Origin: Podarcis pityusensis
Taxonomy: Eukaryota
Length of the DNA stretch: 64,000 nt
Assembly: GCA_964106645.2 (NCBI GenBank)
Contig: OZ067042.1
Strand: one strand, 5' to 3'
Position numbers: made by a program. Of the stretch, positions 11,001 to 17,000 are shown piece by piece. Within the stretch, counting starts at the first letter, position 1; every line of letters begins with the position of its first letter.

Positions 11001-14000
11001 ACAGCAGAGCTAGGTGGTGTTTTCTCAGGAGTCCTGGGAGAGGGTAGTGAATATCCCCTGTGAAATATTATCACAAAAAACCTAGCCACATCAGAAGCCA
11101 CATCATATGCCTCTTTTCTTCAGCCCTCGTTCAATGCCCTCCTTGTTCTGGTCTGTGAGCAAGAAATGCCATCTGTAACCAGAAAATGTTAAATACAGAA
11201 GGATGCCTAGGGGCATAGAAGAGGCTGTGGTGAATATGAATTCTTCCAGCACATTTATATATTTGAACCACAATCCAGCACACAGGCACATTTATGTCCG
11301 CTGAAGTCAGTGGTTGAAAGAGTGTTGGCCATGAAGTTCAGTATCATTCAATATAACTATAAATTACTTTAGCGTTTTGAGATTGGACGCAACAGCTTGC
11401 CAGAAAATAAAAGTAATTTATTTCTTTTATGATTTTTCAGACTCACCAGACTACTATTAGTGTTATTTTTTCACAAAAAATGAGATTATTTTTTTTTTTG
11501 GGGGGGGGGGGTTATATTTCTTACTGGATTCCCAAAACACTAGGGTCAGATTCATATGAAAACCTTGTTACCCCAGTATGTGAATGGCCCCCAGACTTGC
11601 ATACTTCTCCTCCTGCTCTGTCATACCTGTAAGGAGGAGACTAGAAATCTTTGCTTCCACTTTGAAACTATCTTTGGTTCCTTATGATGTGTGAACTCAA
11701 GGAACTACAGTTTGCTAAGCTATGGTTAGTAAGAACAGGCCAGGATCATATTGTGGTCTCATTCCAGCTTTTTCCTCAAATCATAGTTCTTCTGACACCT
11801 CCAGGGGACTTTGATTACTTTTAAACCAAAAGTGGGTGTATCTGGCCATCTGTTCTGACATGGAAAAGTGAAGGGGAGGAGAAAATTCCTAAGACCAAGG
11901 CTTGTCACAACTAATTCACATTGCAGAAAACTGTGGGTTCCCATTGTGTCTGAACTGGTCTTGTAAATGATTGATCTATGTCATCATTCACAGTTTGCTA
12001 TTTTTCATAATATAAAAAGCAATGGAAATTCCATATTTTCCAGTCTTGTGTGTTGGCACCTTCTGGAGGCATCAAACTAAACAATTTCTTGAATATGATA
12101 GGAAAACCATATTCCGATGACATGTGTTTCCAGCCTTTTTTTATTTACCATATTTGTCATTTATGACAGGACACTCAACAGTCACAAATGCTATTTACAT
12201 AGTTACGTAGGGTCTAATTTGGAAGATTTAATTAACCCCCATGTGTTCAGGGGAATATTACTATTATTTATTAAATTTGTCTACCACCCTATACCCACAG
12301 GCCTCAGGGCAGTTCACAGGATAAAATCACAACATAAAAACATGAAATACACAATCAAAATAAAAACAAAAACAACCCAATACCCCCCAAAATAAAGCAA
12401 TAAGCACTACAAGTAGATTGTTGCCATTGTGAATCATAGGCAGCTAGTATTATTCTTGTTGTATCATGACACAATTATGTAAGATTAATCCTTTTTATTT
12501 TAGAAAACAAAGACTGCCCTCTTGGAAAGCATACAAAGGAAGAACAGGACCAAGAGAGTTCAGAATCTCTTAACTACAAGATGCCAACTCCTTTGTCTCA
12601 AAATAGCGAGCAGGGCTCAACGTTACGAGACTTGCTCACCACTACTGCTGGAAAACTGCGCCTCGGCTCTACAGATGCTGGCATTGCTTTTGCACCCGTT
12701 TATTCTACAGGAACTGCAGTGAGTTTGCTACCAAATGCCTTGCTCCAAATGTTCTTGAGTGAGAAGGGTTAAATATAGCTTAGAGAGCAATGTCTAAATG
12801 GAACTGCTTTCACTGTATGATATTCGTCATAGAATGAAATTGTATACCTAAGGGCCTGGGCATGTCCAATGCTATTATTTGGAATTATCATTAACTGCTC
12901 TTGAATTTTTTTCCTCACTGCAGAACAAGGGAGCTGTTTTTCATGAGTCCAAAGGTTCCTTGGACATGTGGAGTTAGTTATGCAATTCTCTGGATCTCAG
13001 GCTGCCATGGTTTCCCTTAAAAAGTTTAGTTATGAACTAACTTAGTTAAAGTTCAAACTTATTAACAACATTTTAAGGCTTTGTCTATGCATGTAAATAT
13101 TACACAAGCAATTCACTAAAGAGTTAAACTCCTGCAATCTCATTGTCCTTTATTGTTTGTGTAAAAATCAGAGGGGTTTGTATCAGTTTGTTATCAGAAG
13201 ATCACTTTTTAATGAATGAGAATATAATATATTACACTGGTCAACAACAAATTTGTTGTCTGCGTTTTTTCAGTTGATTTAGGATGAATCTGATGCACTG
13301 AATCCAAAAATCACATTGGTTTTGCTCAATCAGGTCAAGTTTTTGAGCTATGGCCACATGTCATTTTTTTACATTTTTGTTCACATATACGCTTGTGTGG
13401 AGCATTTTAGAAGAAGTTGGTGGGGGTAAAATGCCATGTCGAATAATTGTTTTGATTGGAAATGATTATTTTAATGACAAGAAGTATTCAGGTCCGATAG
13501 TTCTGGGTGATTATATCGAAAAGGGATCAGTTTGAAGTCATAAAACCTCGAAATCTTCCATAAATTGGTGAGGCAAAGCATCAAAACTAAGTTAATCCTG
13601 ATCTTCAATCAGCACGTCGTCCTGTAGCTCATTGTGATGAAATTCCAGTGCCTGTCTTCAGAGAACTTCCTGACATTAGTGACGAAGATGCCTCCAGTGT
13701 TGAAGGACATGAAGAAAAAGAAGTGGTTCTTGAAGATGATGCTCCACATCCATTTTCCCAAAAGGAGTTGAATGATCTAGTTCGCGACCTCAGCTTGTCA
13801 AAGGACTATGCCGAACTGTTGGCATCCAGATTGAAGGAAAAAAACCTCCTCTCTGACAGTGCTTGCATCAGCTTCTTCCGCAACAGGCATCAAGAGTACT
13901 TCCGTTTTTTCTCGGAAGAGAAGGACTTGGTGTACTGTGCAGATATTGCGCAGCTTCTGCTCAAGCTTGGAATGCCACAGTACGAACCCAAAGATTGGAG

Positions 14001-17000
14001 ACTGTTCATTGACAGCAGCAAGCGATCACTGAAATGTGTTCTGCTACACAACGGCAACCAGTTTGCCTCTATACCCCTGGCTCACTCGCGTACACTGAAG
14101 GAGAACTATGAAGCGGTGAAGTATGTGCTGGAGAAAATTGGTTATGATCAGCATAAGTGGTTTATTTGTGTTGACCTGAAGATGGTGAACTTTTTGTTGG
14201 GACAACAGTCTGGCTTCACCAAGTACCCATGTTGTCTGTGCATGTGGGATAGTAGGGACCGCGCTCAGCATTACACGAAGAAGGACTGGCCTGTGCGGGA
14301 GGAATTGGTGCCTTGCAAAAAAAGGAACATCATCAACGACCCTCTGGTGGACAGAGACAGAATACTCTTCCCACCGCTGCACATCAAGCTCGGCTTAATC
14401 AAACAGTTCACCAAGGCTCTGGACAAGGATGGTGACTGCTTCACTTACTTGTGCCAGGCTTTTTCAGGATTGACCATGGAGAAGTTGAAAGCTGGCATCT
14501 TTGACGGTCCTCATATCCGTCAGCTCATCAGAGATCCAGAGTTCGGAAACTCAATGAACGAAGTGGAACTGGAAGCGTGGAAGGCATTTGTTCTGGTACT
14601 GAAGAACTTTCTTGGCAACAATAAGGCCAGAAACTACACAGAACTTGTCAACAACATGCTGACTGCTTTCAGAAACTTGGGCTGCAACATGAGCGTCGAT
14701 GCACTACCTATTTTCACATATGGACCGGTTTCCTGAGAACCTGGGTTCAATGAGTGACGAGCAGGGGGAGAGATTCCATCAGGACATGAAAGAGATGGAG
14801 ACCAGGTATCAGGGTCTCTGGGACGCAGTCATGATGGCTGACTACTGTTGGATTCTGAAGAGAGACCTGCCTGCCACTGAGCATTCCAGGAGTTCCAAGA
14901 GACGGAAGTTCAAGCCCTGAAGTTTGAAAAATGGTGAAGCAACATGCAATTTACGTGTACTTACCTTTATCAATGCCCACCATTCAGTTTACAGTAAACC
15001 TGACCTGATGGAGAGAAACGGATGCCATTTCCTGATTCAGCAGTGCAAAAATACCCTAAATCAGTTGTAGAAATCAACATTCAAAAAGTAAAAAATGGTT
15101 GCCCAGTGTTATTGTAGTTTTCAGTTTGATTGCACTATTGATTATTATTAGGTTAGCATCTCTTCTATGGTCTGATGATGAAAGGTTTCCTCCTGACAAG
15201 TTCAATATTGCTTAAGTCCTCATTTTATTTTTCCAATAGAGTAGCAAAGGTGGAAGGACGATGCCAAACATTCTTGAGGACATAATTGCTTCAGTTGTAG
15301 AAAACAAGATTCCACCAAATAGAACACCAAAGATAAATGTAAAATCTGAAGTGAAGGATGAGCCAAAGGATGAGCGAAAAATTATTACAGATGATTGCAG
15401 CACATTGTTCAGTGATGTTCCACATTCATGGCTCTGTGATAAACACATTTTGTGGCTCAGTGATCATAAAAACAGCAACAACTGGAAACTTTTCAAGGAT
15501 TGTTGGAAGCAAGGAAAGGTATGTTTAAAATGCCCTTCAGCACCTAGAAAGGGGCTTATGAGACAGCATGCTTGCACCTTAATTTTAGATCTGTTGTTGG
15601 ATTTCATAGATTCATAGAATTGTAGAGTTGGAAGGGACCATGAGGGTTATCGAGTTTAAATGAAGAGAATCCATTTGTCAGTGGATGCAGCCAAATGTGG
15701 CCTAAGGATTACCACTTCCTAACGCTTCAGCCAGAGTCCCTCACTAACTGCCACTTGCCTCGTTATATATGTAACACATTATATATGTAACACAGATGCC
15801 TCATTTTATCTTGAAGGCTATTCCAGACTAACTGGGAGAAAGGACGATAAGGATTATGCAATATTACCAACATGGCACCTCATGTAAATTTTGCAATACT
15901 TCCTTGTCATGAAATAGTCTTCAGAACAGTATTTTAGCTATAACGGAAGGGGAAAGAACTATAACCCACAGCAGTAGCAGGGATGTACTATTGGAGAGAG
16001 TTCTTGGTCTCTGCTGACAAAAGTGACCAGCCACATAGCTCAATGTATTATCATTTTAATGCCAGTCTTGAAGTTAAAACTTAACGCATTAACAAAATTT
16101 TAAGCGTAGGTTAAGGCCAAGAACATATTAAATACTGAGAATTATGGACCAGTTAAAGTGTTCCCTATTAATGTTTGTTGTGCAATATTACTTCAGTATA
16201 TATGTGTAAAGATCAACCTAACAACTCCTTTTGCACTCCCAGGTAGGAAGAAAATTAACAGGGTCTTAGTTGTAGTCTAATTGTGTTGAGGTTGGTCAGT
16301 GGGCAACATCTGGTGATGTTTTTCCACTTGTGCAACAGAAACCCACTTACAAACCAAGACTTGTGGTTTCTCTTTTCTCCACTGCAGCCCCCGTCAAAAA
16401 AACCTGCTCTGGAGCATTCAGCAATTCTCTGGAGCAGATTTAGGGGTCTGTAGTGGGGAGGAGATGAAGAAGCCCCACTGCATGAGCTGATGAACACTCA
16501 TGCAATGTTGCATCTCACTATATATTTCCATTGCTGGCAAATTAATTGCTTTTAAGTATGAAGTCTCATTATGCAGTAAGTAGCAGGTAAATTGTTTTAT
16601 TGGTTATTGTTTTGAGAGTAAATCTGAACTTAAGAATTCTTCATCGAGGATATTACTAATGTTTGGACTAATTTTCAGCTCTTGGTGGTACAAACAGCAG
16701 TCTTGCAAATCAGCATTTAAGAAAATGAGTTGAGAAATAGTAGAAAGAACTTGAAATGTGAGACAAATGAAAAGAGTAGAAACTCTGAAAACCATGCTGT
16801 GTTAAAGACAATTCACATGCCTAAATGAAGGTGTCCCAATATTTATTGATGAACAGTTAATATTCTAAACTTCTGTGCAGTGAAGACGAGATATCCTTTC
16901 AAGACTGATGGAAATATGCATGAATCCGTTTTTTAAGTGCTCTTGCTTATTTCCACTTTTCTGTTTTCCTTTTCAGCCCGTATTAGTGTCTGGAATGCAG

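What the first reader, a model, noticed from the sequence alone, without database searches (positions are those of the whole stretch)
13232..15111. Bounded, near-intact Chapaev3-type transposon in a JMJD1C intron: horizontal-transfer candidate
Seen: both termini (CAC...GTG), a perfect TTA TSD, and about 440 codons of transposase with one 2-nt frameshift and no internal stops. All putative catalytic motifs are present (IDSS, VDLK, CxxC/H, EQGERFH). The N-terminal Cys-rich region and an ATG are not visible (in-frame TAA at 13588). Established, from memory: Chapaev3 families are patchily distributed and have been reported as horizontally transferred between vertebrates and invertebrates. Inference: this is a relatively young deletion-derivative lineage that invaded this lizard. 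It is sense-oriented in a chromatin-regulator intron.
Basis: partly seen in the sequence, partly recalled or inferred. Interest (0 to 1): 0.7.

Follow-up and report, generated by a model that had tools for sequence, protein, structure and literature searches.

The report
Decaying Chapaev3 transposon in lizard JMJD1C intron
This is a real but dead copy of a Chapaev3 cut-and-paste DNA transposon sitting in an intron of a wall-lizard-like JMJD1C gene; its closest named relatives are in invertebrates, which fits the horizontal spread already known for this transposon group.

Summary
A 1,874-bp element (13235-15108) has CAC...GTG termini and a perfect TTA duplication in an A|TTA|T context. It also has about 110-bp subterminal inverted repeats (0 of 2000 shuffles reach their score). 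It carries about 440 transposase codons in two frames, broken by one 2-nt deletion at 14698, with no internal stop.

Target site, termini and the order D, D, C(2)C, LH, H(4)H, E match published Chapaev3 hallmarks. Pfam has no model for the catalytic core, and I could not compare the element with Repbase or Dfam.

The copy cannot make a transposase. The N-terminal zinc-finger (Chapa) domain, about 105-115 residues, is absent, and no start codon survives. The frameshift cuts off H(4)H and the catalytic E.

Full-length relatives that keep the domain fall in the same well-supported clade, and another copy shares the 5' junction region. It is therefore a deletion derivative.

The host is a Podarcis-like lacertid (NRBF2 99% identical). 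The element lies sense-oriented between JMJD1C exons, 128 bp (15112-15239) upstream of the next exon.

Named relatives are 66-80% identical in firefly, shrimp, leech and copepod, against 59% in another squamate. Horizontal transfer is plausible but unproven, because no dS, copy-number or empty-site test was possible.

Verdict: a new member of a known kind, of modest interest.

The parts
13232..13234 (.). 5' target-site duplication TTA, preceded by A at 13231
   Evidence: It matches the TWA duplication between A and T described for Chapaev3 (PMC4079192 section 13).
13235..13246 (+). 5' terminal inverted repeat CACTGGTCAACA
   Evidence: (I10)
13235..13342 (+). 5' subterminal region. It is inverted-repeat-like with the 3' end and shares conserved blocks with the ends of the distant relative L001.
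   Evidence: alignment A2; 69/108 identical; 0 of 2000 shuffles reach the local score
13343..13563 (+). 5' internal stretch with no detectable transposase homology. 13322-13348 resembles the translated 5' leader of P0004. 13516-13570 is shared with the N-terminus of P0013. ATA at 13513 lies where P0013 has Met. TAA lies at 13561. An ATG at 13432 is only a lead for a vestigial start codon.
   Evidence: for the codons
13564..14697 (+). Transposase coding remnant, frame 1. Clear homology begins at 13597 (PDLQSARRP), and TAA lies at 13588-13590. It holds candidate catalytic D (FIDSS 14005-14019) and D (CVDLK 14167-14181), C(2)C (14230-14241) and LH (14371-14388).
   Evidence: (profile match 13564-14700, i-E-value 1.9e-193)
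14698..14698 (+). Frameshift: a lone G where relatives have a Lys codon (2-nt deletion)
14699..14920 (+). Transposase coding remnant, frame 2, with H(4)H (14702-14719), the E-bearing DEQGERFH (14756-14779) and stop TGA at 14918-14920
   Evidence: (profile match 14690-14917, i-E-value 4.4e-39)
14921..15108 (+). 3' untranslated part. 14996-15108 is the subterminal inverted-repeat partner and 15097-15108 is the 3' TIR (reverse complement CACTGGGCAACC).
   Evidence: Read-through tails of P0010, P0013 and P0017 match up to 14994.
15109..15111 (.). 3' target-site duplication TTA, followed by T at 15112
12503..12760 (+). Upstream JMJD1C exon (extent of the tblastn match; splice site not mapped)
   Evidence: P0243 residues 943-1032, 76%
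15240..15518 (+). Downstream JMJD1C exon: AG at 15238-15239 and GT at 15519-15520. The element plus its TSD ends at 15111; 128 bp of intron (15112-15239) separate it from the exon, which starts 129 bp after the TSD's last base.
   Evidence: (PDB JMJD1C chains, E 2.7e-16)

Best explanation
What it is. 13235-15108 is one inserted copy of a Chapaev3-group DDE cut-and-paste DNA transposon, of the CMC / Transib-related clade.

How such elements move (established knowledge). A transposase binds the CAC-ended terminal and subterminal inverted repeats, excises the element and reinserts it at A|TWA|T sites. This duplicates the 3-bp TWA.

Why this copy cannot move itself (shown).
- It lacks the N-terminal Chapa zinc-finger domain, about 105-115 residues, and a start codon.
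- A 2-nt deletion at 14698 separates the first two catalytic Asp residues and C(2)C/LH from H(4)H and the catalytic Glu.
- It has private changes at conserved columns.

What could still happen (inferred). Both ends are intact, so a full-length family member could still mobilise it in trans.

Origin of the short form (shown in part). It belongs to an internally deleted sub-lineage whose full-length relatives, about 557 aa with the Chapa domain, are in the same clade.

Position (shown). It lies in the sense orientation in a roughly 2.5-kb intron of JMJD1C in a Podarcis-like lacertid and makes up about three quarters of that intron.

How the family arrived (inferred). Most likely by horizontal transfer within a lineage shared with arthropods and annelids, as published for other Chapaev3 families.
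For: Ends, duplication and target context.

Homology: 2842 proteins at E<=1e-5 among 4571 candidates. The best is 94% identical; full-length ones of 546-580 aa are 74-84% identical. The window covers only their residues ~116-557.

Hallmarks in print:
- TWA duplication between A and T, and the C(2)C, LH and H(4)H motifs (PMC4079192 section 13).
- Anolis Chapaev3 elements are 1,767-1,910 bp with TWA and CAC termini (PMC3014272 passages).
- The Chapa domain is present in Chapaev3 (PMC4411706 passage).

The N-terminal region of relatives gives sub-threshold zf-AD matches in 38 of 63 members and RAG1_imp_bd in 3 of 63. This fits the ZAD-like Chapa/RAG1 N-terminal finger (bioRxiv 10.64898/2026.01.24.700457 passages).

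Clade: the window sits in a 9-row clade (SH-aLRT 99) with full-length P0003. That clade lies inside a 26-row clade (97) holding firefly, shrimp and leech rows. Rhineura, frog and Hydra fall elsewhere.

Decay: 21 differences from P0001 in 423 columns; 16 are window-private, 2 P0001-private and 3 ambiguous.

Host and intron.

Host yardsticks:
- NRBF2 is 99% identical to Podarcis, 82-90% to other lizard families and 68-73% to mammals.
- The JMJD1C exon is 59-60% identical to frogs and 35-53% to bony fishes.
- The transposase is 80% identical to a firefly protein.
Against: - No direct comparison with Repbase or Dfam Chapaev3 consensus sequences was possible. Family assignment rests on hallmarks and on literature descriptions.
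- Pfam gives 0 families for the window ORFs and nothing above cut-off for relatives.
- No solved structure matches by sequence: 1 hit at E 0.83, to a FYVE finger.
- For transfer, amino-acid identity alone cannot exclude a strongly constrained, vertically kept lineage.
- Most close hits are unnamed, so their hosts are unknown.
- Anolis has old Chapaev3 families with a similar terminus, CACWGSCCAAC, so squamates have carried related elements for a long time.
- GC3 of the ORF (57%) does not separate it from host genes: JMJD1C is 37% and NRBF2 56%.
- No second copy or MITE lies in the window, so amplification in this genome is not shown here.
Confidence: 0.8

Rival explanations
1. The element is the same, but the family has been in squamates by vertical descent. 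No horizontal transfer brought it into lacertids. The similarity to invertebrate copies reflects purifying selection on an old, patchily retained lineage.
For: - Anolis carries old, extinct Chapaev3 families with TWA duplications and a near-identical terminus, CACWGSCCAAC.
- Another squamate, Rhineura, has a Chapaev3 protein.
- Subterminal blocks are conserved even with a 50%-identical relative. This shows that constraint can keep non-coding parts similar.
Against: - The Rhineura protein is only 59% identical and sits in another clade.
- Firefly, shrimp and leech proteins are 70-80% identical, with short internal branches in one 26-row clade.
- Host proteins are less conserved between lizard and mammal (68-73%) than this transposase is between lizard and firefly.
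- Individual copies decay neutrally.
- Recurrent transfer is documented for three Chapaev3 families, one of them in a lizard.
Confidence: 0.17
2. The 1.87-kb form is not a deletion derivative but the normal full length of its family. On this reading it is a Conan-like family (Chapaev3-1_ET: 1,865 bp, one exon of 461 aa). Its transposase naturally lacks the Chapa domain and starts near 13513. The window copy would then merely carry a lost start codon, two stops and one frameshift.
For: - Table 1 of PMC4079192 lists Conan_ET at 1,865 bp with a 461-aa exon.
- An ORF running from 13513 would have about 469 codons.
- P0013 starts with Met exactly there.
- P0001 (424 aa, 46 member sequences, contigs <=1,839 bp) is an intact, consensus-like Chapa-less ORF, with a tree end branch of 0.003.
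- The terminus of a non-autonomous Anolis family, CACWGSCCAAC, matches ours at 10 of 11 bases. That this family is the Conan one is my inference from the names and copy numbers.
Against: - P0003 (557 aa, with the N-terminal domain) and P0005 sit inside the same 9-row clade.
- Homology to full-length proteins starts abruptly at PDLQSARRP, directly after unrelated sequence and a stop.
- 81 of the 120 listed relatives are 540-600 aa long.
- No Conan sequence could be compared.
Confidence: 0.15
3. The ORF is a domesticated, host-serving transposase gene or an exonised part of JMJD1C.
For: - It lies in the sense orientation in an intron.
- There is no AATAAA or ATTAAA on the sense strand.
- There is a long stop-free stretch.
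Against: - It has a frameshift before the catalytic E and no start codon.
- It has 16 private changes, 4 of them at columns invariant in relatives.
- The ends and duplication of an ordinary insertion are intact.
- The lizard JMJD1C reference P0243 aligns across the intron without it.
Confidence: 0.02

Closest known systems
Chapaev3 families of Anolis carolinensis (Chapaev3-1_AC, 1,910 bp, 485-aa ORF; Chapaev3-2_AC; non-autonomous families). Source: Novick et al. 2010, PMC3014272, passages only.
   Same: - 3-bp TWA duplication.
- Termini starting CAC, with 11-19-bp TIRs. One is CACWGSCCAAC, against our CACTGG(T/G)CAAC.
- About 1.8-1.9 kb in length.
- A lizard host.
   Different: - The Anolis families are described as extinct, at 12-35% divergence. 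This copy has only about 3.5-4% private amino-acid change against a consensus-like relative.
- No sequence comparison was possible.
Conan (Chapaev3-1_ET of tenrec; Conan_AC and ConanN1/N2_AC of anole), one of three Chapaev3 families with reported horizontal transfer. Source: Zhang et al. 2014, PMC4079192, sections 7, 12 and 13 read.
   Same: - Nearly the same length: 1,865 against 1,874 bp.
- A single-exon ORF of about 460 aa.
- A lizard among the hosts.
- TWA target between A and T.
- Patchy distribution.
   Different: - Membership is untested because no Conan sequence is available here.
- That paper found Conan in no reptile other than the anole, in databases as of 2013.
- The paper's supplements, which hold the TSD tables and alignments, are closed.
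Merrow and Garfield (Chapaev3 families of lampreys/fishes and of insects/a bracovirus). Source: PMC4079192.
   Same: - The C(2)C, LH and H(4)H motifs.
- The TWA target.
- Full-length transposases of about 556-562 aa.
- Horizontal spread.
   Different: - Their transposases are encoded by two exons (78 + ~480 aa). The full-length relatives of this element are single ORFs.
- They are 2.29-2.45 kb long.
Transib transposases and RAG1
   Same: [quoted passage not shown]
- A Chapa-type N-terminal zinc finger is shared by Chapaev elements and RAG1/RAG1L.
   Different: - Only distant.
- Transib makes 5-bp duplications (recalled).
- This copy lacks the Chapa domain altogether.
- No structural comparison could be run.

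Membership tests
Chapaev3 (sub-lineage of Chapaev, CMC/CMCT clade) | 3-bp target-site duplication of consensus TWA, inserted between A and T | tested here: met
   A-TTA-[element]-TTA-T at 13231-13234 and 15109-15112. The criterion is from PMC4079192 section 13 and PMC3014272.
Chapaev3 (sub-lineage of Chapaev, CMC/CMCT clade) | Termini 5'-CAC...GTG-3' with short terminal inverted repeats | tested here: met
   CACTGGTCAACA / CACTGGGCAACC. The ends extend into ~110-bp subterminal inverted similarity, with 0 of 2000 shuffles reaching the score. The distant relatives L001 and L002 also end in CAC...GTG.
Chapaev3 (sub-lineage of Chapaev, CMC/CMCT clade) | [quoted passage not shown] | tested here: met
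   Order along the element: FIDSS, CVDLK, CCLC, PPLHIK, HYLFSH, DEQGERFH. All lie in columns conserved among relatives. Which D and E residues are catalytic is inferred, not tested. The frameshift at 14698 splits the set.
Chapaev3 (sub-lineage of Chapaev, CMC/CMCT clade) | N-terminal Chapa zinc-finger domain | tested here: not met
   It is absent from this copy: profile positions 1-105 of 132 have no match. It is present by Cys/His pattern in full-length clade-mates such as P0003, with sub-threshold zf-AD matches in 38 of 63 relatives. The failure reflects a deletion in this copy, not the family.
Chapaev3 (sub-lineage of Chapaev, CMC/CMCT clade) | Sequence similarity to curated Chapaev3 consensus sequences (Repbase/Dfam) | not testable with these tools
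   No repeat library is on hand. There is only indirect support. Named relatives come from Helobdella and Hydra, two species whose Chapaev3 families appear in the Fig. 1 legend of PMC4079192.
Conan family (Chapaev3-1_ET / Chapaev3-3N1_AC) | At least 80% nucleotide identity to the Conan consensus | not testable with these tools
   Only length and ORF size (1,865 bp, 461 aa) and a similar Anolis terminus can be compared.
Horizontally transferred transposon (operational criteria of Zhang et al. 2014) | Identity between distant hosts above that of host genes; patchy distribution; tree at odds with host phylogeny; dS far below host genes; no orthologous sites | tested here: inconclusive
   Met at protein level: identity and tree. 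Not testable here: dS, distribution among squamates, and orthologous or empty sites.

The most novel reading that the evidence does not exclude
The Chapa-less, roughly 1.87-kb form may be more than a dead by-product. It could be a successful lineage in its own right, possibly the same as or sister to Conan of tenrec and anole, that has spread between distant animals and amplified. It keeps an intact catalytic-core ORF of about 424-469 aa. That would mean either a Chapaev3 transposase can work without its RAG1-like N-terminal zinc finger, or a truncated protein is kept as a regulator of the full-length element.
Probability: 0.1. Interest if true: 0.55.

Novelty: new member of a known kind. Interest (0 to 1): 0.3.

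Why it matters
The finding adds a lacertid host, and a fairly well-preserved copy, to a transposon group already known for repeated horizontal transfer among animals, one case involving a lizard. If dS tests and empty-site checks confirm transfer, it gives one more dated vertebrate-invertebrate event.

The element also carries the catalytic core of the transposase group closest to Transib/RAG1 while lacking the RAG1-like Chapa finger. A family survey could therefore show whether that domain is needed for mobility.

For the host the insertion looks harmless. It fills about 76% of a JMJD1C intron, has no sense-strand poly(A) signal, and ends 128 bp before the next exon.

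Tried and rejected
- Pfam on the window ORFs: 0 families. Relatives give only sub-threshold zinc-finger hints.
- PDB by sequence with a 14-row profile: 1 hit, at E 0.83.
- Structure prediction: not accepted twice, so there was no fold search.
- ESM Atlas: it does not hold the window protein. Run with the firefly homologue P0008 it lists eukaryote-only unnamed clusters (commonest Arthropoda, Porifera) and a weak lead (score 0.82) to a cluster in which 28% of members carry RAG1_RNase_H. 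I treat this as a lead only.
- Cluster-member lookup for ten close hits: not sent, because the database was off. The hosts of the unnamed close relatives therefore stay unknown.
- Scan of bacterial/archaeal genome contigs: 5 of 41 candidate stretches encode relatives, all only 46-58% identical and on MAG- or bacterium-labelled short contigs. They were useful for termini but too distant for dS.
- Weak collinear tblastn hits at 20012-20375 (-) and 4681-4892 (-) were not confirmed by the full-length profile at domain E<=1. I reject them as noise.
- Remnants of the N-terminal domain in 13235-13563: none found by profile or by tblastn at E<=5.
- Other copies or MITEs in the window: none. blastn gave 2 chance-level hits of 20-21 nt. 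The terminus pattern gave 4 matches against 1.6 expected, 2 of them the element's own ends.
- GC3 as a sign of foreign origin: uninformative.
- Rfam (0 matches) and tandem repeats (none inside the element).
- Literature: no paper in the held library links Chapaev to lacertids beyond one review sentence about Anolis.

Full report
**1. The observation**

- TTA lies at 13232-13234 and again at 15109-15111.
- Between them is a 1,874-bp element. It begins CACTGGTCAACA, and its reverse-complemented end reads CACTGGGCAACC.
- The bases outside the duplications are A (13231) and T (15112).

I tested how unusual this arrangement is. I scanned the 64-kb window for TWA-CAC...GTG-TWA with the same TWA on both sides, 800-4000 bp apart.
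- At >=9 of 14 and at >=11 of 14 agreeing terminal bases there is exactly one place, this one.
- In mononucleotide shuffles, 8 of 300 give at least one place at >=11/14, and 230 of 300 at >=9/14.
- The short TIR is therefore only moderately unusual by itself.

The ends are established by their longer similarity.
- The first ~108 bp (13235-13342) align with the reverse complement of the last ~113 bp (14996-15108).
- 69 of 108 positions are identical. The local score is 28, against a shuffle mean of 8.8 and a maximum of 18. None of 2000 shuffles reach it.
- The same conserved blocks occur at both ends of L001, a relative whose protein is only about 50% identical.

**2. The coding part**

- Frame 1 is open from 13591 to 14733 and frame 2 from 14693 to 14917. 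TAA lies at 13588-13590.
- After the Val codon at 14695-14697 there is a lone G (14698), followed by ATG CAC... in the other frame. Relatives have Lys-Met-His there.
- About 440 homologous codons (13597-14697 and 14699-14917) carry no stop.
- A protein search gave 2842 hits at E<=1e-5 among 4571 candidates. The best is 94% identical (P0001, 424 aa). Full-length proteins of 546-580 aa are 74-84% identical.
- A profile built from the 81 listed hits of 540-600 aa, run over all six frames of the window, matches only here: 13564-14700 and 14690-14917.

**3. What family it is**

Pfam has no model for the catalytic core: 0 families for the window ORFs and nothing above cut-off for relatives. No solved structure matches by sequence. 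Classification therefore rests on hallmarks described in print.

- Zhang et al. 2014 (PMC4079192; sections 7, 12 and 13 read; supplements closed) state that Chapaev3 elements make a TWA duplication, insert between A and T, and carry C(2)C, LH and H(4)H motifs. They cite Yuan and Wessler 2011 for the motifs; I did not see that paper.
- Novick et al. 2010 (PMC3014272, passages) describe Anolis Chapaev3 elements. These have TWA duplications, termini starting CAC, 11-19-bp TIRs (one is CACWGSCCAAC) and lengths of 1,767-1,910 bp.

The element meets all of these. It has A|TTA|T and CAC...GTG ends. Along the element the order is FIDSS, CVDLK, CCLC, PPLHIK, HYLFSH, DEQGERFH, all in columns conserved among relatives. 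Which D and E residues are catalytic is inferred. I could not compare the element with Repbase or Dfam consensus sequences.

**4. What is missing**

- Full-length relatives start with a Cys/His-rich region of about 115-130 residues.
- tblastn with ten relatives covers only their residues from about 95-151 onward.
- A 132-position profile of the N-terminal region matches only at positions 106-132, from 13564. Positions 1-105 have no match in any forward frame of 13235-13660.
- According to Kapitonov and Koonin 2015 (PMC4411706, passage), Chapaev3 transposases carry the Chapa domain. This is a complex zinc finger shared with the RAG1 N-terminus.
- A 2026 preprint (10.64898/2026.01.24.700457, passages) relates its first finger to the ZAD fold.
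- In line with that, 38 of 63 relatives give sub-threshold zf-AD matches (best E 0.0028) and 3 of 63 give RAG1_imp_bd.

This copy thus lacks the presumed DNA-binding or regulatory finger. It also has no start codon and two in-frame TAA codons upstream of the homology (13561, 13588). Its frameshift separates D, D, C(2)C and LH from H(4)H and E. It cannot encode an active enzyme.

**5. Deletion derivative or natural short form?**

I built a tree of 44 rows: the window ORF, hits P0001-P0035 and 13 named hits, out of the 120 listed. It used a quick IQ-TREE search with SH-aLRT support only.
- The window falls in a 9-row clade (support 99) with P0001, P0029, P0031, P0003, P0005, P0010, P0013 and P0017.
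- P0003 (557 aa) has the whole N-terminal domain and P0005 has part of it. A Chapa-bearing form therefore exists within the family.
- P0013 begins with residues that match window 13516-13570, that is, the sequence just upstream of where homology to full-length proteins begins. At least one other copy therefore shares this 5' junction region.
- P0010, P0013 and P0017 also read through into the window's 3' untranslated part, up to 14994. Each has its own frameshift. They are separate decaying copies of one family.

A rival reading is not excluded.
- Table 1 of Zhang et al. lists Conan_ET (Chapaev3-1_ET, tenrec) at 1,865 bp with a single 461-aa exon.
- An ORF from 13513, where P0013 has Met and the window has ATA, would have about 469 codons.
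- The family may therefore be Conan or Conan-like, and the short form may be what the literature treats as that family's full length.

This could not be tested.

**6. State of this copy**

- Against P0001, whose tree branch is 0.003 and which looks consensus-like, the window differs at 21 of 423 aligned positions.
- Polarised with 15 other relatives, 16 changes are private to the window (one of them adjacent to the break), 2 are private to P0001 and 3 are ambiguous.
- The window departs at 4 of 177 columns invariant in at least 12 relatives, one of them the residue inside C(2)C.

This is the pattern of neutral decay after insertion. About 15 replacements over roughly 965 non-synonymous sites is about 1.6% by my arithmetic. 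With squamate neutral rates recalled as roughly 1-2 x 10^-9 per site per year, the insertion would be of the order of 10-20 million years old. This is a rough inference, not a measurement. The element's G+C (44%) and CpG observed/expected (0.46) exceed those of the flanking intron (38%, 0.21).

**7. Host and position**

- The ORF at 32023-32757 (-) is the large last exon of NRBF2 (Pfam E 2e-101). It is 99% identical to Podarcis muralis and P. raffonei. The next best is 90% (Elgaria), and mammals are 68-73%. The host is therefore a Podarcis-like lacertid.
- The ORF at 2-1255 (+) is JMJD1C, 85% identical to Sceloporus.
- The exon at 15240-15518 (+) matches PDB chains of JMJD1C at E 2.7e-16, better than KDM3B at 1e-10.
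- A named lizard JMJD1C (P0243) maps to 16 collinear + strand blocks from 2 to 22796. Among them are 12503-12760 and 15240-15527.

The element therefore lies in the sense orientation in an intron of about 2.48 kb. With one duplication copy it is 1,877 bp, about 76% of that intron. Counted from the end of the 3' duplication, 128 bp of intron (15112-15239) separate it from the next exon at 15240. It has no AATAAA or ATTAAA on the sense strand.

That NRBF2 and JMJD1C are convergent neighbours in other vertebrates is recalled.

**8. Horizontal transfer**

Named relatives of the window ORF:

| Relative | Identity |
|---|---|
| Pyrocoelia pectoralis (firefly) | 80% |
| Helobdella robusta (leech) | 78% and 70% |
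| Penaeus vannamei (shrimp) | 76% |
| Caligus rogercresseyi (copepod) | 66% |
| Rhineura floridana (the only named squamate) | 59% |

- In the tree, firefly, shrimp and leech rows share a 26-row clade (support 97) with the window, with short internal branches. Rhineura, a frog and Hydra lie in another clade.
- Host proteins in the same window are less conserved. NRBF2 is 75-80% identical to birds, crocodilians and turtles and 68-73% to mammals. The JMJD1C exon is 59-60% identical to frogs and 35-53% to bony fishes.
- Recurrent transfer of Chapaev3 families, including Conan between tenrec and anole, is published.

Transfer is thus the more likely history. The standard tests could not be run here: dS against host genes, distribution among squamates, and empty or orthologous sites.
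- The only DNA of relatives I could fetch is 46-58% identical at protein level.
- The hosts of the unnamed close hits are unknown (not sent).
- Old Anolis families with a similar terminus show that related elements have long been in squamates.

**9. Novelty**

Five literature searches found no paper in the held library that reports Chapaev elements in lacertids. The one co-occurrence is a review sentence about Anolis. Repeat libraries may already hold the family; I could not check. The kind of element, its mechanism and its tendency to transfer horizontally are all known. I rate it a new member of a known kind, of modest interest.

The boldest reading left open is that a Chapa-less form is a successful, possibly horizontally spreading lineage. 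That would bear on what the RAG1-like finger is for.

Noticed in passing
window 32023-32757 (-): Large terminal exon of NRBF2 (Pfam NRBF2 E 2e-101), 99% identical to Podarcis muralis and P. raffonei. It is convergent with the 3' end of JMJD1C (last mapped block 22704-22796, +). This fixes the host as a Podarcis-like lacertid.
   Followed up: yes
window 43763-44152 (+), 45626-46384 (-), 46347-47525 (-), 48368-49567 (-): Long ORFs of 130-400 aa beyond NRBF2. Two have sub-threshold reverse-transcriptase (RVT_1) matches (E 1e-4 and 7e-3). They are probably LINE or other retroelement remnants.
   Followed up: no
L001-L005 (MAG- or bacterium-labelled contigs); P0120: Short contigs filed under bacterial genomes or MAGs carry complete eukaryote-type Chapaev3 elements. 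L001 spans 97-2214 with CACTGG... ends and L002 spans 227-2716. Most likely these are eukaryotic contigs binned or assembled into bacterial records, not bacterial genes.
   Followed up: partly
tree (P0060 Rhineura, P0109 Hydra, P0110 Phyllobates): A second Chapaev3 lineage joins an amphisbaenian, Hydra and a frog on short branches (Rhineura 0.10, Hydra 0.22; supports 90-93). This is another pattern that host phylogeny does not explain.
   Followed up: no
P0010, P0013, P0017 against window 14734-14994: These database proteins continue in the wrong frame into the 3' untranslated part. They read W at all five places where the window has TGA. They were evidently called under a TGA=Trp code. Their C-terminal ~60-90 residues are artefacts.
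   Followed up: partly
window 13322-13348: The translated 5' leader of P0004 (81% relative) matches the window's non-coding 5' region at 8 of 9 residues. Subterminal blocks are shared even with the 50%-identical L001. The non-coding ends are under constraint and are probably transposase-binding sites.
   Followed up: partly
   Followed up: no
window 15354-15379: A 12-nt unit repeated 2.2 times inside the JMJD1C exon, encoding a KDEPKDE-type repeat. It looks ordinary.
   Followed up: no
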